Below are positions 9,667 through 58,411 of a stretch of 64,000 nucleotides of DNA, in pieces. Both the position numbers and the translations under genes were made by a program. The stretch comes from Minisyncoccota bacterium (lineage in GTDB: Archaea > Nanobdellota > Nanobdellia > Pacearchaeales > GW2011-AR1), in the NCBI GenBank assembly GCA_035453125.1, contig DAOTCN010000001.1, positions 233,634-297,633 on the forward strand. Reading direction: 5' to 3'. The stretch's first letter is position 1, and every line of letters begins with the position of its first letter. The notes beneath the pieces were generated by a model, which made no database searches, was not told the origin of the DNA, and saw nothing but the letters and a program-made list of their open reading frames with translations.

Positions 9667-9888
9667 ATGTTAGAATCAATAAGAAAATTAACTTATGAAA
9701 TTCAAGAAAATCGACTATATCGAGGAATTGGACAAGCAGTTATTGCAATAGCTTTAGGTGTTGCTGTATTAAAAGGAATTGATTATGTTGATTCAATATA
9801 TAATATTCCTATAATTCAAGAAGAAACTCAGTTTCAAAGAAACATGAATTTTGAAGGATTAGAAGCATTTAATTACGAACTTGAGTAA
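9667..9888 (+). CDS. hypothetical small membrane protein
   Basis: 73 aa with one hydrophobic helix GIGQAVIAIALGVAVL. Confidence 0.35.
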   Translation: MLESIRKLTYEIQENRLYRGIGQAVIAIALGVAVLKGIDYVDSIYNIPIIQEETQFQRNMNFEGLEAFNYELE

Positions 9889-24634: not shown

Positions 24635-25129
24635 ATGAAAAACAAAAAAAGTTATGATATTGTTCTGATTGTGTTGGTCATAGTAATTATATTACTTGTT
24701 GCAGGTGTATTATTTTTAGCTAAAGAACTTAAGTCAATTGATGAATTTGAAAAAGAACATGCTAATTTAGATGATGCAAGTTTTTCAGATAATTATGTTA
24801 TTAAAGTTATTGATGGAGACACTTTTGTAATGAAAAATGGGCAGACAGTTAGATTAATATGTATAGATGCTCCTGAAAGAGGAGAAACGAATTTTACTGA
24901 TTCTAAAGAATTTCTTGAATCTTTAATTTTGCATAAAGAAGTTCGACTTGAAAAAGATGTTTCTGAAACAGATGATTATGGAAGATTGTTGAGATATGTC
25001 TATAGAAATGCTACTATTAATGGAGAAACAAATGAATATTTTATAAATAAAATTATGGTTAATCAGAATTATGCCTATGTTTGGGCTTATGGAAATGATA
25101 CTAAAAGATGTAGTGAAATTGCAGGTTAA
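24635..25129 (+). CDS. membrane-anchored thermonuclease (SNase-like)
   Basis: 164 aa. N-terminal TM, then VIDGDTFVMKNGQTVRLICIDAPE...DDYGRLLRYVY, typical of staphylococcal nuclease homologues. Confidence 0.85.
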   Translation: MKNKKSYDIVLIVLVIVIILLVAGVLFLAKELKSIDEFEKEHANLDDASFSDNYVIKVIDGDTFVMKNGQTVRLICIDAPERGETNFTDSKEFLESLILHKEVRLEKDVSETDDYGRLLRYVYRNATINGETNEYFINKIMVNQNYAYVWAYGNDTKRCSEIAG

Positions 25130-28857: not shown

Positions 28858-28973
28858 CACTAAAAAATCATAGATTTTTGGTGACCATTCGCATTTACAT
28901 GCTCAGGTATTTGAACTTCCAAGTTCAAAGTCAGAATATTAAATGATATTTCACCAAGTTCAATATCATGAAA

Positions 28974-29058
28974 CGCCCGGACCAAGATTTGAACTTGGGA
29001 ATCGCTTGCGCGAAACAGGTTTAGCAAACCTGCGCCGTAACCGCTGGGCCATCCGGGC
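28974..29058 (-). tRNA. tRNA-Ser (anticodon GCT)
   Basis: Acceptor GCCCGGA/TCCGGGC, anticodon arm CAGGT-TTGCTAA-ACCTG, long variable arm TCGC-GCAA-GCGA, T arm CCAAG-TTCAAAT-CTTGG. Confidence 0.92.
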
Positions 29059-29109
29059 ATGTAATATGATGAAACTTAAGGAATTTAAAGGTTTTTATTA
29101 TCATATTTT

Positions 29110-32448: not shown

Positions 32449-33408
32449 ATGAAAATAAAAAATAAAGTTATGATTAGTACTATTCCTCCTTTATTGATTA
32501 TTGTTTTATTTGTATTATTTACTCTTTTTATCTTAGTACCTGTTGAAAATTTAGGTGATAATTACATTCTAGGAGCACATAGGGGAAATTCTATTGATTT
32601 TATTGAAAATACTCTTCCTGCTTTTGAATCTGCAGTCAATAATGAAAAATATAAGTTCATAGAATTTGATATTCAATATACTAAAGATAAACATATAATT
32701 TTACATCATGACTTAAGTTTAGCTAGATTGCAACAAAAACCATATAAAATACAAAATTTAAATTATGAAGAATTACTTATAAAAAGTAATTATTATATTC
32801 CTAATTATTCTGAAGTTATGAATATTGTTTCTAAAAAGAAACCACTTAATATTGAAATTAAATCTCAAGGAAATTTTGAAGATGATAAAAAACTTGCTGA
32901 TTTTATAATTTCTGATTTGACTGAAAGGAATTTGATTAATTCGACTTTAATTAGTTCTGTATCAAAAGAAATAATTAGATATATTAATGAAAAGTATAAC
33001 AATTACTCATATTATACTGAAAATTTATCAAAAGAAGAGGTTGTTTATTTTGAGGAATATTATAACAAAGATAAGTGGATTGATACGGGGGTCGTATATT
33101 ATATTGAAAAAAGTACTTTTTTTCATGGTGTTTGTGATTGGTTTAAAGAAACAGAGTTATATCACTGCGCTAGTAATGAAATGATTCAAGGATTAACATG
33201 GTCTGGAGCGAATTATTTAATGGTACATGGAAGTAACATGAGAGATAATTATAACTTACAGGTTTTTTTACCAAAAAATTCTGCAATTGTATTTTGGAAT
33301 TTTGATGATAAAATGTATTTAATTCTTCCTAATAAAGAAAATTGGAAAAAGAAATATAATATAAATATAGAAAAATTTGGTGAAATAAAACCTTGGTGGA
33401 TTGATTAA
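32449..33408 (+). CDS. glycerophosphodiester phosphodiesterase family protein, membrane-anchored
   Basis: 319 aa. N-terminal TM, then GAHRGNS..ENTLPAFESAV..FEFDIQYTKDKHIILHHD, typical of GDPD. Confidence 0.8.
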   Translation: MKIKNKVMISTIPPLLIIVLFVLFTLFILVPVENLGDNYILGAHRGNSIDFIENTLPAFESAVNNEKYKFIEFDIQYTKDKHIILHHDLSLARLQQKPYKIQNLNYEELLIKSNYYIPNYSEVMNIVSKKKPLNIEIKSQGNFEDDKKLADFIISDLTERNLINSTLISSVSKEIIRYINEKYNNYSYYTENLSKEEVVYFEEYYNKDKWIDTGVVYYIEKSTFFHGVCDWFKETELYHCASNEMIQGLTWSGANYLMVHGSNMRDNYNLQVFLPKNSAIVFWNFDDKMYLILPNKENWKKKYNINIEKFGEIKPWWID

Positions 33409-38342: not shown

Positions 38343-40625
38343 ATGGTAAAAAAGGGAGGAAAATTTTATTTTGTAATAGTTTTGATTTTTTCAATAATTA
38401 CTCTTATTTTTCCGTTTGTTTCAGCAGATATCTTTCTTGCAAAATCTCCTGAATCAACTTATAATCTAGGTGATGTAATGAGTGTAGTACTTGGTTCAGA
38501 TGGAAGTGAAGGTTGGGCAAGTGTTGATCTTGCTTGTAGTAATGAATCAAAAATGATATATTTTAGATATCTAACAGATGAACAAGCTATTGAAATTCTT
38601 ACTCCTTTTAATAAAGAATTTTTAAGAAGTATGCTAGGGGATTGTATTTTAAAACTTAGTTTTAATGGTAAACAAAAAGATAGTCTCCCATTTTTTATAT
38701 CAGATGTATTAGATGTTTCAGTTTATACTGAAATAACAGAATTTAATCCGGGTGAAACTGTTGTTTTTAGTGGAAGTGTAACAAAACCTAATGGAAAAAT
38801 AGTAAACTCTGCAACTGTTGATTTAAAGTTTACAAGTATAAATCTTGGAACAATTGTTGAAGTAAACGAAGGCTCTTTTTCTGGCAGTTTTGTGTTGCCT
38901 GAAAATTTAAAATCTGGAAGTTATGAATTTAGTGTATTCGCTTCTGAAAAAGATTCTTTGGGAGATGTAACAAATTATGGAGAATCTAAAAATAGTATAA
39001 CAATTAAACAAATGCCAACAATCTTGAACATTTCAAGTTCAGAAAAAGCAATTCCTGGAAATAACTTTGATTTTAGTTCATTATTATATGATCAAATTGG
39101 AGAGATTATTAATTCAAAAGTTGTTGATTATACTATAACTGACATTAATGATACTATTATTTTAAGTAGATTGTCCAATGTTGGGGATAATGGAGTATTA
39201 AGCTTACCAAAAAATGCTCCCTTTGGAGCTTGGAAAATAATTGCTGAATCTGAAGGAATTAATAATGAAAAAATATTTTATGTTGAAAAAAATATGGAAG
39301 CAACTTTTGAATTAATTGATGGAACTCTTAAAATAACTAATGTAGGTAACATACCTTATACTAGAAAAATTGAAATGAATATTGGCAATGAAACAAACGT
39401 TACTTATGTTAATTTAAGCTTAGGAAAATCAGTAGAGTTTAAACTTTCAGCTCCTAGTGGTGTTTATGACATTGGTGTAAATGATGGTACTAAAAGTGAA
39501 AATTGGTCTGGTGTTTCATTAACAGGCAATGCAATTTCATTTGGAACATCGAAAAAAGGTGCAATTGGTTTTTTTAATAGAAGTGCTTTTGTTTGGGGAT
39601 TTTTAATTACTTTATTACTATTATTTGCAATTGTTCTTGGAACAAAAAAGTATATGAATAAAAACTATTATTTTAATTCAAAAGATAAAAACTCAAATAT
39701 TTCTAAAAAACAGGTAATGCCAATTATAAGTACTCCTAGCGTTTCTAAAAATGGAGGAATTGTTAAAATCACTTCTGAGAATGATAGAAAACCTGGAATT
39801 GAAATTGATAATGGTTTCTTAACTTATTCTCCAACAATTGATGGAGTAAGACAGGTAGCAGCAATAATTGCTATTAAAATAAAGAACTATTCTGAAATAA
39901 AACAAAACCCTGGAATGACTGAAGAATATTTAAAAAAATTGTCTGAAAGCATTATAAATAATAAAGGTAAGGTTTACAAGGTAAATGATTCTATAATTGG
40001 AGTATTCACTTCTAGTTATACTAAAAGTTCTGATAATGAAATGATTGCAATAAAAACTGCAAAAAGAATTAGTGAAATACTTAAAGATTATAATTCCAAA
40101 TTTAGTCAAAAGATTATTTTTGGTATTGGACTAAATACTGGTGAAGTAATTATAAAACCAGATAATGGAAAATTATTATTTAATGGAATTGGAAATGTTC
40201 TAACAAATGCAAAAAGAGTTGCAGAATTATCTGATAATGAACTTTTGCTTAGTGAAGACTTTCAGAGAAAGGTTTCTTCGAGAGTTAGAACAACACTAAA
40301 TGAAGTTGGAAGTGGAATAATAAAAACTTACAAATTAAATGAAATAATTAGTAGAAATGAGAATAGTCAATTTATTGAATCATTCTTAAAAAGAAATCAA
40401 GAATATAATTCTTTAAGAGCTTATAGAAGTGAAAGACCAAATACAATAAGAACACCATCCCCAATTACTCCTGTAGCTGACAAACCATTTAAAACAACAA
40501 TTTCTCCTCAAAGTTATCCAAATGAAAGAAGTATTGTAACAAAAGAGGATTTTCAAAAAGGACATGCAGGTTATAGTTCAAAGACCGAAAATAATCCTGC
40601 TAAAAAAAGTGCGATTGACTGGTAA
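38343..40625 (+). CDS. single-pass surface receptor with cytoplasmic divergent class III cyclase-homology domain
   Basis: 760 aa. Signal peptide, ~385-aa beta-rich ectodomain, TM at aa ~414-433. Aa ~503-650 align by eye to the class III cyclase pattern (IFGIGLNTGEVII, GIGNVLTNAKRVAELS..ELLLSEDF). Confidence 0.55.
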   Translation: MVKKGGKFYFVIVLIFSIITLIFPFVSADIFLAKSPESTYNLGDVMSVVLGSDGSEGWASVDLACSNESKMIYFRYLTDEQAIEILTPFNKEFLRSMLGDCILKLSFNGKQKDSLPFFISDVLDVSVYTEITEFNPGETVVFSGSVTKPNGKIVNSATVDLKFTSINLGTIVEVNEGSFSGSFVLPENLKSGSYEFSVFASEKDSLGDVTNYGESKNSITIKQMPTILNISSSEKAIPGNNFDFSSLLYDQIGEIINSKVVDYTITDINDTIILSRLSNVGDNGVLSLPKNAPFGAWKIIAESEGINNEKIFYVEKNMEATFELIDGTLKITNVGNIPYTRKIEMNIGNETNVTYVNLSLGKSVEFKLSAPSGVYDIGVNDGTKSENWSGVSLTGNAISFGTSKKGAIGFFNRSAFVWGFLITLLLLFAIVLGTKKYMNKNYYFNSKDKNSNISKKQVMPIISTPSVSKNGGIVKITSENDRKPGIEIDNGFLTYSPTIDGVRQVAAIIAIKIKNYSEIKQNPGMTEEYLKKLSESIINNKGKVYKVNDSIIGVFTSSYTKSSDNEMIAIKTAKRISEILKDYNSKFSQKIIFGIGLNTGEVIIKPDNGKLLFNGIGNVLTNAKRVAELSDNELLLSEDFQRKVSSRVRTTLNEVGSGIIKTYKLNEIISRNENSQFIESFLKRNQEYNSLRAYRSERPNTIRTPSPITPVADKPFKTTISPQSYPNERSIVTKEDFQKGHAGYSSKTENNPAKKSAIDW

Positions 40626-49092: not shown

Positions 49093-49635
49093 CTATTCAA
49101 AACTTTTTTGAATGTGATTTGGAACAAGCTTGTTCTTTAGATAATAATCTTTTAGTTTTTTTGGAAGTGTTTTAAACTGGTTAATTATTCCTCTGCAATT
49201 TTTTGAACCGCAATTGCATTTGCAAGTCCATACATAATCTTCATCACCACCTTCATTTATTATCTCAGCATTATCATTCATTGTTGTTGAATAATCATAA
49301 GTGATTTCTTCTCCTTTTTTTATGTCTTTCATTGCTTTTAGTGTATTTTTTCCGGAAATAAATGCATTTGGATCACAAGAATGATTAAATGATCTTGGAA
49401 CTTCGGTTAAATCAATATATTTATTGTTGTCAATTTGTAATGGATCTGAACCTTCTTCTGATTCTTCTTCATCAACTCGCCTTATCATTTCGTTAATTGT
49501 CATTTCTTCTCCATCCATTATACAAAGATATTCACCTTTCTTAATGTCTTTAACTGCAAAAACACCTTTTCCAGAAATACCTGACTTTTCAACTTTAAAC
49601 TTACTTACCTCTTTTTTACTCTTTTCTTTTTTCAT
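49093..49635 (-). CDS. SET-domain protein lysine methyltransferase
   Basis: 180 aa. GKGVFA, FNHSCDPNA, GEEITYDY, post-SET CKCNCGSKNCRG. Confidence 0.85.
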   Translation of the reverse strand: MKKEKSKKEVSKFKVEKSGISGKGVFAVKDIKKGEYLCIMDGEEMTINEMIRRVDEEESEEGSDPLQIDNNKYIDLTEVPRSFNHSCDPNAFISGKNTLKAMKDIKKGEEITYDYSTTMNDNAEIINEGGDEDYVWTCKCNCGSKNCRGIINQFKTLPKKLKDYYLKNKLVPNHIQKSFE

Positions 49636-50276: not shown

Positions 50277-50483
50277 ATGGAAATAACAAAAATAAGCTCA
50301 AAAGGACAGTTAGTTATACCTTCAAAGATTAGAAATGAACTAGAAATAGAAGATGGTAATTTGTTAGTTGTTGACAGAGTTAAAGATATGATAGTAATAA
50401 AAAAAGTTGATATTAATTTAGTTCAACAATTTAAAAATAGCTTAGAAGATTTAAAGAGAGGTAGAATTAAAAGAGTTGCATAA
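50277..50483 (+). CDS. AbrB/MazE/SpoVT-family antitoxin-like protein
   Basis: 68 aa. KISSKGQLVIPSKIRNELEIEDGNLLVV. GAAAGG-TTTAAAAA at 50241-50254 ends 23 nt upstream. Confidence 0.75.
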   Translation: MEITKISSKGQLVIPSKIRNELEIEDGNLLVVDRVKDMIVIKKVDINLVQQFKNSLEDLKRGRIKRVA

Positions 50484-50484
50484 A

Positions 50485-50802
50485 TTAACTTTCATGCATT
50501 ATTTTAGTTATATATTCCTTAAATTCGGGTAATAGTTCTATTATTTTATCAATTGTTTCTTGCTGTGTTTTTTTATTGCCAATTGCAACAATTAATACAC
50601 AATTTAATTCATCATAAATAAGATAATAAATTCTTTTTTCCCTTAATCTTTTTTCACGAAAAAAATGATATCTTAAAATATCTCCAACAAATGGATTTTC
50701 TTTAAGTTGGACAAATAATTTTTCAATTATTTTCCTATCAGAATCGGAAAGCTTCATCATCTCTTTTTCAAAGCTTTCAGTCATATAAACTGCATAAGCC
50801 AT
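50485..50802 (-). CDS. putative RelE/ParE-like toxin (paralogue of 5342-5683)
   Basis: 105 aa. RIYYLIYDELNCVLIVAIGNKKTQQETIDKI. Shares the KKxQQETI tail with the 5342 ORF. Own TATA box. Confidence 0.5.
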   Translation of the reverse strand: MAYAVYMTESFEKEMMKLSDSDRKIIEKLFVQLKENPFVGDILRYHFFREKRLREKRIYYLIYDELNCVLIVAIGNKKTQQETIDKIIELLPEFKEYITKIMHES

Positions 50803-50840: not shown

Positions 50841-50861
50841 TAACCTTAGCTTATGTTATTC

Positions 50862-51983
50862 ATGGCTAAAAAAGAAGAGATGAGTGTAACACCCTGGGAT
50901 GTTTCAGGAGAGGTTGACTATGATAAACTTATTAAAGAATTTGGAACAAAGCCAATTCCTGAAAAAGTAAAGAAAAGATTTTCGAGTATGCATCCGTTAC
51001 TTAGAAGAGGAGTTTATTTTTCACATCGTGATTTTGATAAGTGGTTAGATATGTATGATAAAAAAAAGAAAGTTTCAGTAATAACTGGAAGAGGACCAAG
51101 TGAAAAAATGCATTTAGGTCATTTAGTTCCGTTTTTAGTTGCAAAATCACTTCAAGATGAATTTGATTGTTATGTATTTATACCTATTTCTGATGATGAA
51201 AAGTTTTTTGTAAAACAAAACTTGAGTTTTGATCAAGCATTAAAATACTCTGAAGATAATATTATTGATTTAATTGCACTCGGATTTAAACCTGGAAAGA
51301 CATTTATCTTTGAGGATTTTGTTTATACGGACATTTACAAATATGCTGCACAAATTGCAAAAAGAATTACATATTCTACTGCTAAAGCTTCATTCGGACT
51401 AGTTCCTGAGAATAATATTGGATGGAGTTTTTATCCTGCAATGCAAGCTGCACATATTTTATTTCCACAATTTTATAGTGGAAAACATTTATCTGTAGTT
51501 CCTGTTGGAATTGATCAGGATCCTTTTATTAGACTGACAAGAGATGTTGCTTCTTACCCTGAATTTAATTTTGAAAAACCTGCTGCAATTCATGCAAAAT
51601 TTATACCTTCACTTCAAGGTGATGATAAGATGTCATCATCTGGCGAGGGAATAATATTTCTTTCAGATTCTCCAAAAGAAGTTGAGAAAAAAATAAAGAA
51701 ATATGCTTTTTCAGGTGGAAGAGCAACTGTTGAAGAACATAGAAGACTTGGTGGAAATCCGGATATTGATGTTTGTTTTCAGTATTTAAAGATATTTTTT
51801 GAACAAGATGATAAAAAGCTTGAACAAATTGAGCAAGATTACAGAAGCGGTAAGATGTTAAGCGGAGAGCTAAAAGAATATACTATATCAAAAATAAACA
51901 AATTTCTTGCAGAACATCAGCAAAATAGAGAGTTAGCTAAAAAGCAACTTGATAAGTTTATATTGAAAAATAAGTGCAACTAA
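50862..51983 (+). CDS. trpS: tryptophanyl-tRNA synthetase (archaeal/eukaryal type)
   Basis: VTPWDV..DYDKLIKEFG, HIGH-type HLGHLVPF, KMSSS. Start set to MAKKEE (50862) by promoter spacing. Confidence 0.9.
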   Translation: MAKKEEMSVTPWDVSGEVDYDKLIKEFGTKPIPEKVKKRFSSMHPLLRRGVYFSHRDFDKWLDMYDKKKKVSVITGRGPSEKMHLGHLVPFLVAKSLQDEFDCYVFIPISDDEKFFVKQNLSFDQALKYSEDNIIDLIALGFKPGKTFIFEDFVYTDIYKYAAQIAKRITYSTAKASFGLVPENNIGWSFYPAMQAAHILFPQFYSGKHLSVVPVGIDQDPFIRLTRDVASYPEFNFEKPAAIHAKFIPSLQGDDKMSSSGEGIIFLSDSPKEVEKKIKKYAFSGGRATVEEHRRLGGNPDIDVCFQYLKIFFEQDDKKLEQIEQDYRSGKMLSGELKEYTISKINKFLAEHQQNRELAKKQLDKFILKNKCN

Positions 51984-52264
51984 AAATAGCAATGGTAGTT
52001 ATCAATAGCTCTTCCAATATTCTTAATTATACTTTGGTAAATAATTTCATCAACCTTTTTTAATCTAATAAAATTAACATTATCTCCATATAATCTTCCA
52101 GTAATCTGTCGATCGTTTGATAAACGATGTCTTATTTCGTCTTTTGTATGTGTTCTTATTGAATCTCCGCATGGAAGAATATTATTTAATTGAGCTTCAA
52201 TTGAGATTATAGTAGTTCTTACATTCTTATCATTTAATTCTTCTATTTGTTCTAAGTTAAGCAT
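51980..52264 (-). CDS. hypothetical protein
   Basis: 94-aa ORF. No motif recognised. Confidence 0.35.
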   Translation of the reverse strand: MLNLEQIEELNDKNVRTTIISIEAQLNNILPCGDSIRTHTKDEIRHRLSNDRQITGRLYGDNVNFIRLKKVDEIIYQSIIKNIGRAIDNYHCYF

Positions 52265-52322: not shown

Positions 52323-53207
52323 CTAACTAAGTTCTTTAGGTAAAAAATAAAAGAACATTTTACTCAATGGGCTCTTTGCAACATGTCTTGGTTTTATTCC
52401 TATTGCCCATGTAGGATTTACTGAATCATCATGAAAATGAGTTACACCTAGATTATCTGATAGTGGTCCTTGATTTAATCTTTCAAGTGCTACCATATAA
52501 CATTTTTCCCATGCAACTCTTTCTGTAGGATGTTGTTTAGCATTATATAAAGGATTAACAAATTTTCTGTAACCACTTGAATTTTTATTCAAAAAACTAT
52601 ATTGATTCGGTTGCAGAATAACATCTTTAACTGTTTTACCTTTTCTTGAACTTCTCTGAATAACTGAATCAGCTACCAGTTCTAGAGCAGTTGGTTTATT
52701 TGGTTTAGATTCCAATCTATAAAATTCTCTTCCTTCACAATAAAGTGTTTTTGCTAACAATAAAACATCTGATTCTTGACCAATCGAAATACTTCCTGGA
52801 TTTTCATATTCTGTTTGGTTAAATTGATATTTTAAGTTTAATTTTTGATTTAGCTGTTTTTCATTAAGGTTTATTTTTTCTTCAATGTTTTCATAACTAT
52901 TATTTACACTTAATCCTCTATTTCTAGAACCTTTTTTTTCAAGCAGACTATCTTCATTAGATTTATAATTATTTTTTATCTTCAATCTATCTCTTGATTC
53001 CTGAATAGACTCATTTTTAACAGTTTCTTCAAGATTACTTCCATAATTTGGTTCAATATCATTCAATATGATTGGGGGATTTTCATCAATTGTTTGATAA
53101 TTATTTGATATACATGAGTTTAATACAGTTGTAGCAGCAATAGTTCCAGCTAAATATTTTAAAAATTCTCTTCTGTTAATTTCTGTATCTTCTTTATAGT
53201 TTTTCAT
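52323..53207 (-). CDS. Tat-signal lipoprotein with SleB/CwlJ-like cell-wall hydrolase domain
   Basis: 294 aa. NRREFLKYLAGTIAATTVLNSC (twin-arginine motif plus lipobox). C-terminal LLLAKTLYCEGR..VADSVIQRS..VILQPNQYSF..THFH matches the Hydrolase_2 pattern. Confidence 0.65.
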   Translation of the reverse strand: MKNYKEDTEINRREFLKYLAGTIAATTVLNSCISNNYQTIDENPPIILNDIEPNYGSNLEETVKNESIQESRDRLKIKNNYKSNEDSLLEKKGSRNRGLSVNNSYENIEEKINLNEKQLNQKLNLKYQFNQTEYENPGSISIGQESDVLLLAKTLYCEGREFYRLESKPNKPTALELVADSVIQRSSRKGKTVKDVILQPNQYSFLNKNSSGYRKFVNPLYNAKQHPTERVAWEKCYMVALERLNQGPLSDNLGVTHFHDDSVNPTWAIGIKPRHVAKSPLSKMFFYFLPKELS

Positions 53208-53468: not shown

Positions 53469-55211
53469 ATGAAAATACTAACACTTCATTGTGATTATTT
53501 GAAGTTTAAGCCATTAAAAAAGGCAATAAAAAATCCTGAAGAGTTATCAAAAGAACGTGGAGAAGAAAAAAAAATTGAAGAAGTTCTTGCTGTTTTTACA
53601 GCTGTTGAAAAAAATGATGAAACAAATCCAAAGGTTGTAAATGATTTGATTGTAAATATTAAAGATATAGCAAAACAAGTTGGTACAAAAAATATTGTTC
53701 TTTATCCTTATGCTCATTTATCTTCAAATTTGTCAAATCCTTTATTTGCACAAAAAGTTTTAGAACAAGCAGAAGAACAATTGAAAAAAGAAAGATATAA
53801 TGCTGACCGAGCACCTTTCGGATATTATAAAGAGTTTGAATTAAAATGTAAAGGGCATCCTCTTTCAGAATTAAGTAGGGAAATTAAACTCGAAACAGAT
53901 GATGATAAATTACAGAAAGAAGTTAAGTTTAAAAAAATTGAAAAAGAAGAGGTTTATGATTATAAGAAAATATTAAGTCAATTATCAAAAACAAAATTAG
54001 ATACTTCTAAATTAAAAGAAAATGATCATAGAATTGTTGGGCAAAAACTAGATTTGTTTAGTTTTAGTGAAGTTGCACCGGGCATGGTGTTTTGGCATAA
54101 TAATGGCCTTATAATTTATAATGAATTAATCAATTATTGGAGAGATGAACATAGAAAGGCAGGTTATCAAGAAATTTCTACACCACAAATTTTAGATAAA
54201 AGGTTGTGGTTAATTTCTGGACATTGGGATAAGTATAAGGAAAATATATTTTTAACAGAGTATGAAGGAAGGGATTTTGCAGTTAAGCCAATGAATTGTC
54301 CTGGTGGAATGTTAGTTTATAAAAATTCACCAAAATCATACAAAGATTTACCATTAAGAGTTGGAGAACTTGGAATTGTTCATCGACAAGAGTTATCAGG
54401 AGTATTGGGTGGATTGTTCAGAGTAATTAAGTTTACACAAGATGATGCGCATATATTTTGTACAGAAGAACAGCTTGAAGATGAGATTATTAACATTATT
54501 GAGATAATTGATACATTTTTTAAAAAGTTTGATTTAAAATTTGATCATGTTGAGCTTTCAACTAGACCTGAAAAAAGAATTGGAGATGATAAAGTTTGGG
54601 ATAAAGCTGAAAATACTTTGGAAAATGTTCTAAAAAAAAGAAAGATAAATTATAAGATAAATAAAGGTGATGGTGCTTTTTACGGACCTAAAATTGATTT
54701 TCATGCTAAAGATTCTCAAGGAAGAACTTGGCAGTTGTCAACAATACAGCTTGATTTTGCAATGCCTGAAAGATTTGAACTTGAGTATACTGATACTGAT
54801 AACAAAAAAAGAGCACCTATTATGTTGCATAGAGTTGTTTATGGTAGTATGGAAAGATTTATTGGAATTTTACTTGAACATACAAATGGCGCGTTACCAA
54901 CATGGTTATCTCCAATACAAGTAAGAGTGATTAACTTCACGGATAGAAATAACAAGGCATGCGAGAAACTTGTTAAAAAATTAAAAGAAAGTAACATTCG
55001 AGTAGATTTTGATTTTAATAGTGTTCCTTTAGCAGGTAAAATCCGGGAAGCAGAAATGCAAAAAATACCTTATGTAATTGTAATTGGTGATAAAGAAGAA
55101 AAAGAAAGGAAAATAGCTGTTAGAGTAAGAGGTGAGAAAAAAATTTTTTCTGAAAGTGAGGATAAATTTATTCAAAAGATTAAAGGAGAAATAGATAATA
55201 GACTAAAATGA
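53469..55211 (+). CDS. thrS: threonyl-tRNA synthetase (archaeal type with N-terminal editing domain)
   Basis: 580 aa. MKILTLHCDYLKFKP archaeal editing-domain start. Class II core FRVIKFTQDDAHIF, GAFYGPKID, and an anticodon-binding C-terminus. Confidence 0.95.
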   Translation: MKILTLHCDYLKFKPLKKAIKNPEELSKERGEEKKIEEVLAVFTAVEKNDETNPKVVNDLIVNIKDIAKQVGTKNIVLYPYAHLSSNLSNPLFAQKVLEQAEEQLKKERYNADRAPFGYYKEFELKCKGHPLSELSREIKLETDDDKLQKEVKFKKIEKEEVYDYKKILSQLSKTKLDTSKLKENDHRIVGQKLDLFSFSEVAPGMVFWHNNGLIIYNELINYWRDEHRKAGYQEISTPQILDKRLWLISGHWDKYKENIFLTEYEGRDFAVKPMNCPGGMLVYKNSPKSYKDLPLRVGELGIVHRQELSGVLGGLFRVIKFTQDDAHIFCTEEQLEDEIINIIEIIDTFFKKFDLKFDHVELSTRPEKRIGDDKVWDKAENTLENVLKKRKINYKINKGDGAFYGPKIDFHAKDSQGRTWQLSTIQLDFAMPERFELEYTDTDNKKRAPIMLHRVVYGSMERFIGILLEHTNGALPTWLSPIQVRVINFTDRNNKACEKLVKKLKESNIRVDFDFNSVPLAGKIREAEMQKIPYVIVIGDKEEKERKIAVRVRGEKKIFSESEDKFIQKIKGEIDNRLK

Positions 55212-56842: not shown

Positions 56843-58411
56843 TTAGATAATAGCCAAAAGAATATGTTGGAATAAAAATATTAAAACTAAAAATAATATT
56901 GTAAATAATATGATAAACTTCATTACCTTTCTATTGTTATAATATCCCCAGACAAATGGTGAAATAAATAAACAAAATATCCCATAGTAGAAAAGAACAA
57001 TAGTAAATATCAAATATAATACACCTAGAAGTATATCTAGTATATCTTCCAATCTAGAATGTCCTAACATATCTCTGAACATAAATGTAAAGAATATTAT
57101 TGGAATGACCAAACCCCACAAAAGAGTCCTACCTATAACTTTTTTCATACCTACATCTTCTTGAGTATTTTGTTTAGCTTCAGTGAATCTTTTATCAATT
57201 TTCATTACATAAGAAGCAATAGTGAATCCTACAAAACTCAATAAATTCCAGAAGCCCATTAAACTAAATTTAAACAAAGATGGAGAGTCTTTTCTAAAAA
57301 TAATCAATCCTGAAATTAAACTTGCTAAACATGAAGCAATTAGAAAGATAACTAAAGCTGGATAAAACCAATATCTATTTATTGTATCTGCCATCTGTAT
57401 TTTAGCTGGAGTCGAAATATCCATCCATAAGTCTTGAGTTAAATATTTTGAAGGAGGATTTATCTTAATTTTTGTATACTTCAAATCATTAATGATTTCT
57501 TGATTATTAAAAAAATCCCTTAATTCTTCTGAGGGGCTGTAATATTCTTTGAAAAAATAGTTAACTTGGCTGTCTGCTTTTATTTCATTATACAAATTAG
57601 GCTCTACATAATCCATTACATAAATCACTGCTGGAACTCTTTCGCTTCCATAAACTGATGTTGGTTTTAGAGGGAAATATAATCTATCTGTTGGAAAAGT
57701 AATGAAAACACCGATGCTGTTACCTCTTCTCATCCCCATATATAAATTAGTTTGGTTTCCTTGCTCTTGCTTAAATTTTTCAACATCTGAAATCCAAGAT
57801 ACAACAAAAGAGTATTCTTGTCCAATATATTCTTCTAAGATTGCTTTTGAAGAAGTCTCAAGAATCAATCCTTTGTTAGTTAAATAATTTGTTAAAGAAT
57901 CTCCATTTGTAGCAGAAATTAGTTCAGTTGTTAAACCAAGTTTTTCTATACTTTCATAAACAGTCACACCTTGCATTCCAAGAGTCTCCTTGTTACTCGT
58001 CCCCATACCTATAGAACCAAATGAACCAAATAATATCCATGGAATAGTATAAGTTTGTGTTAACCTCATCGCAGTAAAAGCATTTGAGATTGTTCTATCA
58101 ACTTGTTCTTCAACATCATATCCATTAAGACTTGGAAACCCTTTGATTATATTGATAACTGTTTTTTCAGGTTTTGCTGGAACAGGAAAAATCCAAACTG
58201 CTTTCTCCCCTCTTAATTCTTCTCCAGTATCTACTGTTAGAATCATATTTTGAATTCCATCTTTATAATTTATTGCACAAAACTGTTGCTCTTCTGTAAA
58301 CAAACCCCACATATCTTTATCATAAACATGAATCATTCCATCTGCAAAAACAGAAGTTGCACTAATTGATATTAAGAATAAAAATACAAAACCTAAAAAT
58401 AATTTCTTCAT
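56843..58411 (-). CDS. large membrane protein (DUF2330-like N-terminal ectodomain)
   Basis: 522 aa. Signal peptide, AVWIFPVPAKPEKT-type motif, C-terminal multi-TM region. Confidence 0.45.
   Translation of the reverse strand: MKKLFLGFVFLFLISISATSVFADGMIHVYDKDMWGLFTEEQQFCAINYKDGIQNMILTVDTGEELRGEKAVWIFPVPAKPEKTVINIIKGFPSLNGYDVEEQVDRTISNAFTAMRLTQTYTIPWILFGSFGSIGMGTSNKETLGMQGVTVYESIEKLGLTTELISATNGDSLTNYLTNKGLILETSSKAILEEYIGQEYSFVVSWISDVEKFKQEQGNQTNLYMGMRRGNSIGVFITFPTDRLYFPLKPTSVYGSERVPAVIYVMDYVEPNLYNEIKADSQVNYFFKEYYSPSEELRDFFNNQEIINDLKYTKIKINPPSKYLTQDLWMDISTPAKIQMADTINRYWFYPALVIFLIASCLASLISGLIIFRKDSPSLFKFSLMGFWNLLSFVGFTIASYVMKIDKRFTEAKQNTQEDVGMKKVIGRTLLWGLVIPIIFFTFMFRDMLGHSRLEDILDILLGVLYLIFTIVLFYYGIFCLFISPFVWGYYNNRKVMKFIILFTILFLVLIFLFQHILLAII

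What the first reader, a model, noticed from the sequence alone, without database searches (positions are those of the whole stretch)
52323..53207. Tat-exported lipoprotein with a bacterial SleB/CwlJ-type peptidoglycan hydrolase domain in an archaeon
The N-terminus NRREFLKYLAGTIAATTVLNSC combines a textbook twin-arginine motif with a lipobox Cys. The C-terminal ~150 aa carry motifs that follow the cell-wall hydrolase family 2 pattern, including the conserved Glu: LLLAKTLYCEGR, VADSVIQRS, VILQPNQYSF, THFH. Archaea have no murein, so an exported murein hydrolase implies action on bacterial cell walls (feeding, attachment or antagonism). Alternatively the fold has been repurposed. An Asn/Glu/Ser-rich low-complexity linker separates the signal from the domain.
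Basis: partly seen in the sequence, partly recalled or inferred. Interest (0 to 1): 0.65.

Follow-up and report, generated by a model that had tools for sequence, protein, structure and literature searches.

The report
Exported SleB-like wall hydrolase in Pacearchaeota
A tiny-genome (DPANN, Pacearchaeota-like) archaeon, which has no bacterial-type cell wall of its own, carries a conserved, exported enzyme of the SleB/CwlJ family that cuts bacterial cell walls. This fits the already published idea that these archaea attack, attach to or feed on bacteria, so it is real but not a new kind of thing.

Summary
It has three parts:
- a twin-arginine-type signal (NRREFLK plus a short h-region)
- an Asn/Glu-rich linker of about 100 aa
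- a C-terminal Hydrolase_2 (SleB/CwlJ) domain

Alone, the protein scores just under Pfam's cut-off (25-26.5 bits against 27). The assignment holds because relatives reach E=5e-20, a family profile hits SleB crystal-structure sequences, and an AlphaFold model (pLDDT 96) matches phage SleB-like endolysins. The catalytic Glu (E158) is present in 140 of 140 aligned relatives.

The window is archaeal and the gene has host-like composition. The gene sits between thrS and trpS in a block conserved across related metagenome contigs, where neighbours are 60-78% identical but the hydrolase only about 30%. Contamination and recent transfer are therefore excluded. Every relative that carries an organism name is Pacearchaeota, Woesearchaeota or Nanoarchaeota.

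The RR motif recurs in orthologues. The lipobox Cys does not, so the lipoprotein claim is weak.

The most likely function is an extracellular muramidase or lytic transglycosylase acting on bacterial peptidoglycan. Murein-degrading enzymes in these archaea are already published, but they are GH23 proteins or modular peptidoglycan hydrolases. This is a new member of a known kind.

The parts
52323..53207 (-). Complete ORF, 294 aa plus stop: exported SleB/CwlJ-like hydrolase
   Evidence: ORF. GC 27.8% and GC3 11.9%, like the rest of the window.
53112..53207 (-). Signal region, residues 1-32. It consists of an n-region, the twin-arginine motif N-R-R-E-F-L-K (RR at 53169-53174), an h-region of about 13 residues (YLAGTIAATTVL), and then N-S-C.
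   Evidence: PF10518 scores 17.9 bits, below the cut-off of 22.7. TIGR01409 scores 12.5 bits, below the cut-off of 16.7. The motif is conserved in orthologues. The mean hydropathy of residues 15-33, calculated by hand from the Kyte-Doolittle scale, is about 1.2, and the segment fell below the TM cut-off of 1.6 used.
53112..53114 (-). Cys32, the candidate lipobox cysteine (V-L-N-S-C)
   Evidence: Seen directly in the sequence. Not conserved in RR-type relatives. The -2 Asn is atypical against the lipobox definition in PMC12462473.
52806..53111 (-). Low-complexity Asn/Glu/Lys/Ser linker, residues 33-134
   Evidence: composition. Orthologues have charged, coiled-coil-like linkers of 60-120 aa in the same place.
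52326..52805 (-). Hydrolase_2 (SleB/CwlJ-like) catalytic domain, residues 135-294
   Evidence: profiles. AF2 model with pLDDT 96.2. Foldseek hits to phage SleB-like hydrolases at prob 1.0 and TM 0.55-0.61.
52734..52736 (-). Codon of Glu158, the predicted catalytic glutamate (LYC-E-GRE)
   Evidence: Aligned to the Glu of YGESRGE in SleB 4FET/4F55. Present in 140 of 140 aligned relatives.
53469..55211 (+). thrS (archaeal ThrRS with editing domain), divergent neighbour and synteny anchor
   Evidence: The adjacency is conserved in L011, L013, L014, L016 and L017; in L019 thrS lies about 1.6 kb upstream with three small genes between.
50853..51983 (+). trpS, convergent neighbour and synteny anchor
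   Evidence: trpS lies downstream of the hydrolase and convergent in L011 and L014-L021, directly adjacent in most and with one or two ORFs between in L011 and L014.

Best explanation
The gene encodes an extracellular muralytic enzyme of a DPANN (Pacearchaeota-type) archaeon.

The preprotein carries a twin-arginine-type signal peptide and is exported, probably already folded via Tat. After export it is either released or stays tethered: by Cys32 if that residue is lipidated, otherwise through its signal or linker. The flexible linker of about 100 residues holds the C-terminal SleB/CwlJ-fold domain away from the membrane.

That domain uses Glu158 as the general acid. It cleaves the MurNAc-GlcNAc glycan backbone of bacterial peptidoglycan, a lytic-transglycosylase or muramidase type of reaction.

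The archaeon has no murein, so the target is foreign. The enzyme would open the wall of a bacterial partner or prey at the contact site, or liberate muropeptides from bacterial necromass for scavenging.

Shown here:
- homology and fold
- the conserved catalytic residue
- the presence of an export signal
- archaeal ancestry and long vertical retention of the gene

Inferred:
- the substrate
- the reaction chemistry
- the Tat route
- the mode of anchoring
- the ecological role
For: Domain:
- PF07486 E=3e-5.
- 21 of 40 relatives hit PF07486, down to E=5e-20.
- The family profile hits SleB 4FET and 4F55 with the catalytic Glu aligned.
- Relatives hit TIGR02869 (spore_SleB) at domain level, down to E=8e-16.
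- PHROG 'endolysin' E=3e-7.
- AF2 model pLDDT 96.2. Its best BFVD matches are phage 'cell wall hydrolase SleB' proteins, prob 1.0 and TM 0.55-0.61.

Active site:
- E158 in 140 of 140 aligned relatives
- R185 in 140 of 140
- W267 in 138
- H257 in 129
- PMC12331253 states that this glutamate is essential for SleB's lytic transglycosylase activity.

Export:
- N-R-R-E-F-L-K matches the Tat consensus, and the h-region is short and only weakly hydrophobic.
- The same RR-x-F-L/V signal occurs in positional orthologues L012, L013, L015, L017, L011 and L020, in Woesearchaeota P0196, and in 26 of the 143 relatives.
- Among 277 ORFs of 100 aa or more in about 235 kb of related DNA, the pattern is nearly confined to this family plus two textbook Tat+lipobox proteins.

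Host and ancestry:
- Archaeal ThrRS editing domain, aEF1A, EF2, aIF5B-like and Elp3-like genes in the window.
- The gene's GC and GC3 equal those of the genome.
- The block GluRS-...-Elp3-...-Nudix-...-ThrRS-hydrolase-TrpRS is conserved in L011 and L017. Neighbours are 60-78% identical, the hydrolase about 30-33%.
- The hydrolase-trpS pair is also found in a Pacearchaeota genome (GCA_016188825.1) and on an 886-kb contig.
- All organism-named relatives are Pace-, Woese- or Nanoarchaeota.

Precedents:
- Hydrolase_2 proteins act on ordinary peptidoglycan as phage endolysins.
- A SleB-like T6SS effector depends on the same Glu (PMC11148199).
- Ladybird cwh proteins are antibacterial (PMC7807722).
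- GH23 murein transglycosylases in Pace- and Woesearchaeota are read as a sign of interaction with bacteria (PMC8204110, PMC9723730).
- Archaeal Tat-secreted peptidoglycan hydrolases kill bacteria (PMC12352652).
Against: - No enzymatic or localisation data exist for any member of this archaeal clade.
- The protein alone scores below Pfam's gathering threshold, and several close orthologues give no Pfam hit at all.
- Foldseek against the PDB did not recover the SleB structures; all E-values were above 1.
- The Tat HMMs are below threshold. No TatA or TatC gene is in the window, so the machinery is unverified.
- There is no peptidoglycan-binding domain, so substrate specificity is not independently indicated.
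- Bacillus SleB needs muramic-delta-lactam, so family chemistry need not transfer directly.
- Fast divergence (about 30% identity among positional orthologues) could also mean relaxed or shifted function.
- The L011 orthologue carries an in-frame TGA.
Confidence: 0.62

Rival explanations
1. The fold has been repurposed. The exported enzyme cleaves a non-murein glycan: pseudomurein of a methanogen host, a glycan of an archaeal host envelope or S-layer, or an unknown polymer of the archaeon's own surface. In that case it says nothing about bacteria.
For: - The positional orthologues are only about 30% identical while neighbours are 60-78%.
- This subfamily often falls below the Pfam threshold.
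- The domain is about 160 aa, against about 125 aa in phage SleB-like models, and TM is only 0.55-0.61.
- No peptidoglycan-binding module is present.
- Cultivated DPANN hosts known so far are archaea (background in PMC11537232).
Against: - The catalytic Glu and the family's other invariant residues (R185, W267, H257) are all kept.
- All characterised Hydrolase_2 members act on peptidoglycan.
- Pace- and Woesearchaeota also carry GH23 murein transglycosylases and muropeptide carboxypeptidases (PMC8204110, PMC11537232), which suggests a coherent murein-directed toolkit.
Confidence: 0.15
2. The protein is a Tat-exported lipoprotein exactly. Cys32 is modified with archaeol by an AliA-type enzyme, the signal is cut before Cys32, and the enzyme stays tethered to the archaeal membrane. 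This concerns only the anchoring step and is compatible with the best explanation.
For: - V-L-N-S-C follows the h-region at the expected distance from RR.
- Textbook Tat+lipobox N-termini exist in related DPANN contigs: L020 16660-17313 'SRRDFIRTAGGIILVGGC' and L023 12318-13067 'SRRDFLKTGLGLIIASSIPPFIITGC'.
- Some family members have lipobox-like signals, namely P0076 'LFGC', P0051 'LTGC' and P0190 'TIGCC'.
- AliA is reported to be present in DPANN (PMC12462473).
Against: - Asn at -2 violates the lipobox consensus (PMC12462473).
- The Cys is not conserved in RR-type orthologues, many of which end in A-x-A-like sites (AYA, ARA, ANA, AQA) that suggest signal peptidase I.
- No close (>50% identity) full-length relative is available to test conservation.
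- AliA is not seen in the window.
Confidence: 0.3
3. The domain is catalytically inactive or mainly a binding module. It would act as an adhesin that grips peptidoglycan or another glycan at the contact site without cutting it.
For: - There is no separate binding domain, so the catalytic fold itself must supply affinity.
- The long stalk-like linker resembles surface adhesins.
- The sequence evolves rapidly.
Against: - Conservation of E158 (140/140), R185 (140/140) and W267 (138/143) across relatives is what purifying selection on catalysis would produce.
Confidence: 0.07
4. The gene is not native: bacterial contamination or a chimeric assembly, a very recent horizontal transfer, or the endolysin of an integrated virus.
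For: - The family is bacterial or phage in origin.
- The best PHROG hit is 'endolysin'.
Against: - It lies between archaeal thrS and trpS in a block conserved across at least 10 independent contigs or genomes.
- GC and GC3 are identical to host genes.
- It carries an export signal, which endolysins of this type normally lack.
- The scan of viral contigs found no relative.
- Named relatives are all DPANN archaea.
Confidence: 0.01

Closest known systems
Bacillus SleB / CwlJ spore cortex-lytic enzymes (Pfam Hydrolase_2, PF07486; structures 4FET, 4F55)
   Same: Same catalytic domain family and the same catalytic glutamate in the N-terminal helix (YGE in SleB, YCE here). The family profile hits the SleB sequences. 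SleB is a lytic transglycosylase that depends on this Glu (PMC12331253).
   Different: - About 20-25% identity.
- No SleB N-terminal PG_binding_1 domain.
- Far below the TIGR02869 equivalog cut-off; relatives score 23-58 bits against 236.5.
- No sporulation context and no YpeB partner.
- The host is an archaeon without murein.
- Foldseek against the PDB did not retrieve these structures.
Phage SleB-like endolysins (PHROG phrog_938 / phrog_15649; e.g. Pseudomonas phage pf16, Escherichia phages SU10 and Goslar)
   Same: These are the best structural matches to the AF2 model, with prob 1.0 and TM 0.55-0.61. The PHROG hit is E=3e-7. They are single-domain enzymes acting on ordinary, non-spore peptidoglycan.
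   Different: Phage enzymes act from within the host at lysis and lack Tat signals and long linkers. This gene is chromosomal, syntenic and exported. The scan of viral contigs found no relative.
Large extracellular GH23 (SLT) murein-transglycosylase-domain proteins of Pacearchaeota and Woesearchaeota (Castelle 2021, PMC8204110; Vigneron 2022, PMC9723730)
   Same: Same lineages and the same proposed biology: an extracellular, murein-cleaving enzyme of bacterial origin in small-genome DPANN, suggesting interaction with bacteria. Both are predicted to cleave the glycan strand.
   Different: - An unrelated catalytic family (Hydrolase_2, not GH23).
- Small (about 170-320 aa) rather than up to 3,000 aa.
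- Tat-type signal.
- Fixed genomic position next to trpS in Pacearchaeota.
- Not mentioned in those papers or in any paper I could find.
Haloarchaeal secreted peptidoglycan hydrolases Woldo and Danwoldo, and the archaeal 'modular PGH' survey (Strock 2025, PMC12352652)
   Same: Archaeal enzymes of bacterial origin, with Tat signal peptides, directed at bacterial peptidoglycan. That survey found peptidoglycan hydrolases especially prominent in Nanoarchaeota.
   Different: - Those have M23 or glucosaminidase domains plus peptidoglycan-binding domains.
- The survey required a binding domain, so this single-domain family was excluded by design.
- Those genes are patchy and enriched on plasmids, whereas this one is positionally conserved in the core chromosome.
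Hydrolase_2 genes used outside bacterial housekeeping: ladybird beetle cwh1/cwh2 (PMC7807722) and the SleB-like T6SS effector T6EC3 (PMC11148199)
   Same: The same domain is retained with its catalytic Glu, in an organism or role where the target is another organism's wall. Antibacterial activity has been shown experimentally for these proteins.
   Different: Different hosts and delivery routes (eukaryotic secretion, T6SS). There is no evidence here for killing as opposed to attachment or feeding.
Bacterial Tat-exported cell-wall amidases AmiA and AmiC of E. coli (from my own knowledge, not checked here)
   Same: A precedent for a folded peptidoglycan hydrolase being exported through Tat.
   Different: Amidase_3 fold, and the enzymes act on the producer's own wall during division.

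Membership tests
Pfam Hydrolase_2 (PF07486, SleB/CwlJ-type cell wall hydrolase) | Profile match at or above the curated gathering score (27 bits) | tested here: inconclusive
   The window protein scores 25.0 bits (E=3e-5) for the whole protein and 26.5 bits (E=1.1e-5) for the domain alone, just under 27. The database's precomputed annotation lists PF07486.18 for it. Of its 40 aligned relatives, 21 match, down to E=5e-20. All 120 listed hits carry PF07486.
Pfam Hydrolase_2 (PF07486, SleB/CwlJ-type cell wall hydrolase) | Catalytic glutamate in the first helix (the Glu of Y-G-E-x-R-G in SleB) | tested here: met
   E158 (LYC-E-GRE) aligns with the Glu of YGESRGE in 4FET and 4F55. It is present in 140 of 140 aligned relatives.
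Pfam Hydrolase_2 (PF07486, SleB/CwlJ-type cell wall hydrolase) | SleB-like three-dimensional fold | tested here: inconclusive
   The AF2 model has pLDDT 96.2. Against BFVD, the top hits are mostly phage 'cell wall hydrolase SleB' proteins with prob 1.0, TM 0.55-0.61 and E down to 2.7e-4. Against the PDB, Foldseek found nothing below E=1 and did not recover 4F55 or 4FET.
Pfam Hydrolase_2 (PF07486, SleB/CwlJ-type cell wall hydrolase) | Cleavage of the peptidoglycan glycan strand (lytic transglycosylase or muramidase activity) | not testable with these tools
   This needs an enzyme assay on sacculi.
SleB proper (NCBIfam TIGR02869 equivalog, spore cortex-lytic enzyme) | Equivalog score of 236.5 bits or more, an N-terminal peptidoglycan-binding domain, and a sporulation context | tested here: not met
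   The window protein has no NCBIfam hit apart from a weak Tat signal. Relatives score 23-58 bits. The N-terminus is a signal plus a low-complexity linker, and the host is an archaeon.
Twin-arginine (Tat) substrates | S/T-R-R-x-F-L-K consensus followed by a weakly hydrophobic h-region | tested here: met
   N-R-R-E-F-L-K occupies residues 11-17, followed by the h-region YLAGTIAATTVL (about 13 aa). This region is below the TM threshold used. RR-x-F-[LV] is conserved in orthologues.
Twin-arginine (Tat) substrates | Match to curated Tat-signal HMMs above threshold | tested here: not met
   PF10518 scores 17.9 bits against a cut-off of 22.7. TIGR01409 scores 12.5 bits against 16.7.
Twin-arginine (Tat) substrates | TatA and TatC encoded in the genome | not testable with these tools
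   Only 64 kb of a contig of at least 754 kb is available. The ten membrane-protein ORFs picked as TatA/TatC candidates were not Tat components: three matched other families (Rhomboid, TspO, weak PrgI) and seven matched nothing. The gene lists of L019-L024 show no PF00902 or PF02416. No literature on Tat in Pacearchaeota was found.
Archaeal lipoproteins (lipobox [L/V/I][A/S/T/V/I][G/A/S]C; PMC12462473) | Lipobox matching the consensus at the end of the signal peptide | tested here: inconclusive
   In V-L-N-S-C32, positions -3 (L), -1 (S) and +1 (C) fit, but -2 (N) does not.
Archaeal lipoproteins (lipobox [L/V/I][A/S/T/V/I][G/A/S]C; PMC12462473) | Conservation of the lipobox Cys among orthologues | tested here: not met
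   None of the positional orthologues L011-L017 has a Cys after the h-region, and neither do the RR-type relatives apart from a doubtful 'NNAC' in P0010. Lipobox-type signals do occur in more distant family members and in other DPANN proteins.
'Modular' archaeal peptidoglycan hydrolases as defined by Strock et al. 2025 | Catalytic domain plus at least one cell-wall-binding domain (LysM, PG_binding_1, SH3 and others) | tested here: not met
   Pfam finds only Hydrolase_2 and a weak Tat signal in the protein.

The most novel reading that the evidence does not exclude
A SleB-like, Tat-exported muralytic enzyme is a vertically inherited, core-chromosome component of the Pacearchaeota. It is fixed beside trpS and thrS and diverges about twice as fast as its neighbours. 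It is also widespread in Woesearchaeota and Nanoarchaeota. On this reading, these ultra-small archaea are obligately tied to bacteria, as cross-domain episymbionts or predators that breach murein at the contact site. The fast evolution would then reflect adaptation to different bacterial partners.
Probability: 0.3. Interest if true: 0.7.

Novelty: new member of a known kind. Interest (0 to 1): 0.45.

Why it matters
No Pacearchaeota or Woesearchaeota host has been identified. A murein-cleaving enzyme that is exported, keeps its catalytic residue and has been held at one chromosomal position through deep divergence of the lineage is a second, independent line of evidence that these archaea deal physically with bacterial cell walls. 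The first line is the GH23 giant proteins.

The protein is small and single-domain, and models with high confidence. That makes it a much easier experimental handle than the 3,000-aa GH23 proteins. Its lytic spectrum on sacculi of co-occurring bacteria could point to the hosts or prey.

The result also shows that surveys restricted to modular peptidoglycan hydrolases undercount archaeal muralytic enzymes.

It does not reveal a new mechanism or a new enzyme class.

Tried and rejected
1. Word-indexed homologue searches with the single protein and with full-length alignment A1 returned only the protein itself plus one other. A search with a domain-only alignment (A4) then worked.
2. Both genome-contig scans were wasted. 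The single-protein scan found nothing. A degenerate GKTTRFYxxP pattern gave 10 bacterial loci, L001-L010, which tblastn showed to be chance matches. As a result, no GTDB-labelled genome could be tied to the window.
3. Alignments A1 and A2 were too divergent for the search for related loci.
4. The viral-contig scan found no relatives.
5. Single-sequence AlphaFold failed, with pLDDT 37.
6. Foldseek against the PDB gave only noise.
7. phmmer of the protein against PDB sequences found nothing. Only the family profile reached SleB.
8. The look-up of encoding contigs could not locate the window's own protein.
9. The search for Tat components among membrane ORFs of the window found Rhomboid, TspO and others, but no TatA or TatC.
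10. Literature searches for SleB or PF07486 in DPANN, and for Tat in Pacearchaeota, found nothing specific.
11. Contamination, a prophage endolysin and recent HGT were considered and rejected on synteny and composition.
12. A bacterial donor could not be identified. Every named close relative is archaeal, and no taxon-labelled bacterial set was available.
Full report
**1. The observation**

One search shows a single ATG ORF at 52323..53207 on the minus strand (294 aa), with nothing competing on the other strand.

- NRREFLKYLAGTIAATTVLNSC at residues 11-32
- LLLAKTLYCEGR at 149-160
- VADSVIQRS at 178-186
- VILQPNQYSF at 196-205
- THFH at 256-259

Residues 33-134 are low-complexity: 19% Asn, 13% Glu, 10% Lys and 9% Ser.

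**2. Is it a SleB/CwlJ-type domain?**

On its own the protein is marginal:
- Pfam Hydrolase_2 (PF07486) gives E=3e-5 and 25 bits for the whole protein. The domain alone gives 26.5 bits. The gathering score is 27.
- phmmer against PDB sequences finds nothing.

The family context settles it:
- An exhaustive HMMER search of 1.8 billion representatives with residues 135-294 found 143 relatives at E<=1e-3.
- In a 40-sequence alignment (A1), 21 members hit PF07486, down to E=5e-20.
- A profile of A1 hits the two SleB crystal-structure sequences, 4FET at E=1.4e-5 and 4F55 at E=4.6e-5. It places the family's invariant Glu on the Glu of SleB's Y-G-E-S-R-G-E. By chain numbering, this is the residue published as catalytic (E151 and E157, recalled from memory). 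PMC12331253 and PMC11148199 confirm that SleB has an essential catalytic glutamate.
- Relatives also hit TIGR02869 (spore_SleB) at domain level, far below the equivalog cut-off.
- The window domain hits PHROG 'endolysin' phrog_938 at E=3.3e-7.

Structure prediction gave mixed support:
- With alignment A1, AlphaFold2 gave a very confident model, pLDDT 96.2 and pTM 0.91. The single-sequence run had given pLDDT 37.
- Foldseek against BFVD returns a long list dominated by phage 'cell wall hydrolase SleB' proteins at probability 1.0 and TM 0.55-0.61.
- Foldseek against the PDB did not recover SleB; all E-values were above 1. I report this as an unexplained negative. The domain is about 35 residues longer than the phage and SleB cores.

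Across all 143 relatives the key residues are conserved:
- E158 in 140 of 140 aligned sequences
- R185 in 140 of 140
- W267 in 138
- H257 in 129

The window protein has all of them. The domain assignment and an intact active site are therefore well supported.

**3. Is the host an archaeon, and is the gene native?**

The window is archaeal:
- It encodes a ThrRS with the archaea-specific editing domain (E=1.4e-49) and a TrpRS.
- It encodes EF-2, an eEF1A-type EF-1α and an aIF5B-like GTPase.
- It encodes an Lhr helicase, an Elp3-like radical-SAM protein, RNase HII and a GluRS.
- GC is 27.6%. The hydrolase gene has GC 27.8% and GC3 11.9%, indistinguishable from its neighbours.
- The database records the protein on a 753,673-bp contig.

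A metagenome scan with a subfamily alignment (A3) brought in eight loci. tblastn of window proteins against them gave these results:
- The block GluRS - o61704 - Elp3 - methyltransferase - Nudix - o55424 - ThrRS - hydrolase - TrpRS is collinear in L011 and L017.
- Partial versions of the block occur in L013-L018.
- The housekeeping neighbours are 60-78% identical, while the hydrolase domain is only 29-33% identical.

More distant family members (28-30% identity) were traced with the look-up of encoding contigs:
- They again lie convergent with trpS in an NCBI Pacearchaeota genome (GCA_016188825.1, L020) and on an 886-kb contig (L019, with thrS nearby).
- In two Woesearchaeota contigs and one other, the family member sits elsewhere, but still among archaeal genes such as FEN1, TYW2, LonB and Kae1.

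Every relative that carries an organism name is DPANN:
- Candidatus Pacearchaeota (P0003, P0009, P0124, P0168)
- Nanoarchaeota or Nanoarchaeia (P0013, P0091, P0172, P0190)
- Woesearchaeota (P0076, P0196)
- 'archaeon' (P0164)

A domain-only profile (A4) retrieves 1285 clusters at E<=1e-3. The 120 listed all carry PF07486.

Contamination, a prophage endolysin and recent transfer are therefore excluded. The gene is an old, vertically transmitted and fast-evolving resident of the Pacearchaeota chromosome. It belongs to a large DPANN-wide family.

**4. The N-terminus**

N-R-R-E-F-L-K matches the Tat consensus S/T-R-R-x-F-L-K at six of seven positions. It is followed by a short h-region of about 13 residues with modest hydrophobicity, too short for a transmembrane helix and below the TM threshold.

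The curated HMMs are sub-threshold: PF10518 scores 17.9 against 22.7, and TIGR01409 scores 12.5 against 16.7.

Conservation argues that the motif is functional:
- The positional orthologues carry PNRREFL (L012), IPRRDFV (L013), VSRRNFL (L015), AGRRDFV (L017), ITRRGFL (L011) and STRRKVL (L020). Woesearchaeotal P0196 has YTRREIL.
- 26 of the 143 relatives are of this type.
- Among 277 ORFs of 100 aa or more in about 235 kb of related DNA, the pattern is almost restricted to this family.

The lipobox is another matter:
- V-L-N-S-C has Asn at -2, outside the published archaeal and bacterial consensus (PMC12462473).
- None of the RR-type orthologues has a Cys there.
- Several end in A-x-A-like sites (AYA, ARA, ANA, AQA) typical of signal peptidase I.

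On the other side:
- Two unrelated proteins in related contigs have textbook Tat+lipobox signals: L020 16660-17313 'SRRDFIRTAGGIILVGGC' and L023 12318-13067 'SRRDFLKTGLGLIIASSIPPFIITGC'.
- Some distant family members have lipobox-type signals.
- AliA is reported in DPANN (PMC12462473).

Export is therefore well supported and the Tat route is likely but unproven. No TatA or TatC is in the 64 kb available. I give lipidation of this particular protein about a 30% chance.

**5. Mechanism proposed**

The preprotein is exported by its RR signal. It is then released or remains tethered. The linker of about 100 residues acts as a spacer; orthologues have charged, coiled-coil-like linkers of 60-120 aa in the same place. 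The SleB-fold domain uses Glu158 to cleave the glycan backbone of peptidoglycan.

DPANN archaea make no murein, so the substrate must be foreign. It would be either the wall of a bacterial partner or prey at the contact site, or bacterial necromass.

The window also encodes other exported-looking hydrolases, consistent with a scavenging lifestyle:
- an SNase-type nuclease at 24635-25129
- a glycerophosphodiesterase at 32449-33408
- an MG2 (α2-macroglobulin-like) protein

Homology, the active-site residues, the export signal and the ancestry are shown here. Substrate, chemistry, route and role are inferred.

**6. Comparison with what is known**

Closest relatives by sequence and fold:
- SleB and CwlJ share the family and the catalytic Glu. 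This protein is not an orthologue, since it lacks a PG-binding domain and a spore context and falls far below the equivalog score.
- Phage SleB-like endolysins are the best structural matches.

Closest relatives by biology:
- The large GH23 lytic-transglycosylase-domain proteins of Pace- and Woesearchaeota have been taken as evidence for interaction with bacteria (PMC8204110, PMC9723730, PMC10936187, PMC11537232).
- The archaeal modular peptidoglycan hydrolases, some of them Tat-secreted, have been shown to kill bacteria (PMC12352652). That survey required a wall-binding domain, so it would have missed this single-domain family. Its hydrolases are patchy and plasmid-enriched, whereas this gene is positionally fixed.

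Other precedents:
- Hydrolase_2 genes acquired by ladybird beetles are antibacterial (PMC7807722).
- A SleB-like T6SS effector depends on the same Glu (PMC11148199).

I found no paper that mentions PF07486 or SleB in DPANN. However, NCBI and JGI pipelines already name relatives 'cell wall hydrolase' or 'CwlJ-like'.

**7. Verdict**

It fits an already published picture and is a new member of a known kind.

Three points go beyond the literature I could search:
- the size of the DPANN Hydrolase_2 family
- its Tat-type signals
- its fixed position beside trpS and thrS in Pacearchaeota, combined with rapid divergence

I score interest at 0.45. The protein is a convenient experimental handle on the unknown hosts of Pacearchaeota, but it is not a surprise to a specialist.

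Noticed in passing
L011 9671-10495 (+), stop codon at 9848-9850: The positional orthologue on a 140-kb contig has its RR signal part (MREKF...ITRRGFL...) separated from the hydrolase domain by a single in-frame TGA. It could be a pseudogene, an assembly error or read-through. Gene callers took only the downstream 196 aa (P0005).
   Followed up: partly
L020 16660-17313 (-) and L023 12318-13067 (-): Two unrelated proteins with no Pfam hit, from a Pacearchaeota genome and a Woesearchaeota genome, have textbook Tat+lipobox N-termini: 'SRRDFIRTAGGIILVGGC' and 'SRRDFLKTGLGLIIASSIPPFIITGC'. This hints that Tat-dependent lipoproteins exist in these DPANN lineages.
   Followed up: partly
window 24635-25129 (+), 32449-33408 (+), 38343-40625 (+): Three other probably exported proteins, each with an N-terminal hydrophobic segment: an SNase-type nuclease, a glycerophosphodiester phosphodiesterase and a 760-aa MG2 (α2-macroglobulin-like) protein. 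An MG2 (faint) protein also lies 1-3 kb from the hydrolase-trpS pair in L019, L020 and L021.
   Followed up: partly
window 51980-52264 (-): A 94-aa ORF lies 58 nt downstream of the hydrolase on the same strand and overlaps the trpS stop by 4 nt. It has no Pfam or NCBIfam hit and no tblastn match in the syntenic loci. It may be spurious or lineage-specific.
   Followed up: partly
window 50277-50483 (+) and 50485-50802 (-): A MazE/AbrB-type antitoxin-like 68-aa ORF (PF04014, E=1e-8) sits next to a convergent 105-aa ORF with no family hit. This is a possible toxin-antitoxin remnant just upstream of trpS.
   Followed up: no
window 56843-58411 (-): A 522-aa membrane protein with a weak DUF2330 match (26.3 bits, whole-protein cut-off 24.7, but no single matched stretch passed the E-value limit). 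Pfam describes this family as 'conserved in bacteria'. It may be another bacterial-type envelope gene in this archaeon.
   Followed up: no
window 49093-49635 (-): A SET-domain protein (PF00856, E=5e-16) overlaps the start of the aIF5B-like gene by about 35 nt.
   Followed up: no
model mfd875694ebfc (window 52326-52805): Foldseek against the PDB returned only noise and missed SleB 4F55 and 4FET. A sequence profile of the family does hit those entries, and Foldseek against BFVD finds many SleB-like phage proteins. The cause was not established; it may be the prefilter, the insertions in the archaeal domain, or the library content.
   Followed up: no
window 1-64000: Rfam found no RNA family at gathering threshold, and only one tRNA (Ser-GCT, 28973-29059) is present in 64 kb.
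   Followed up: no
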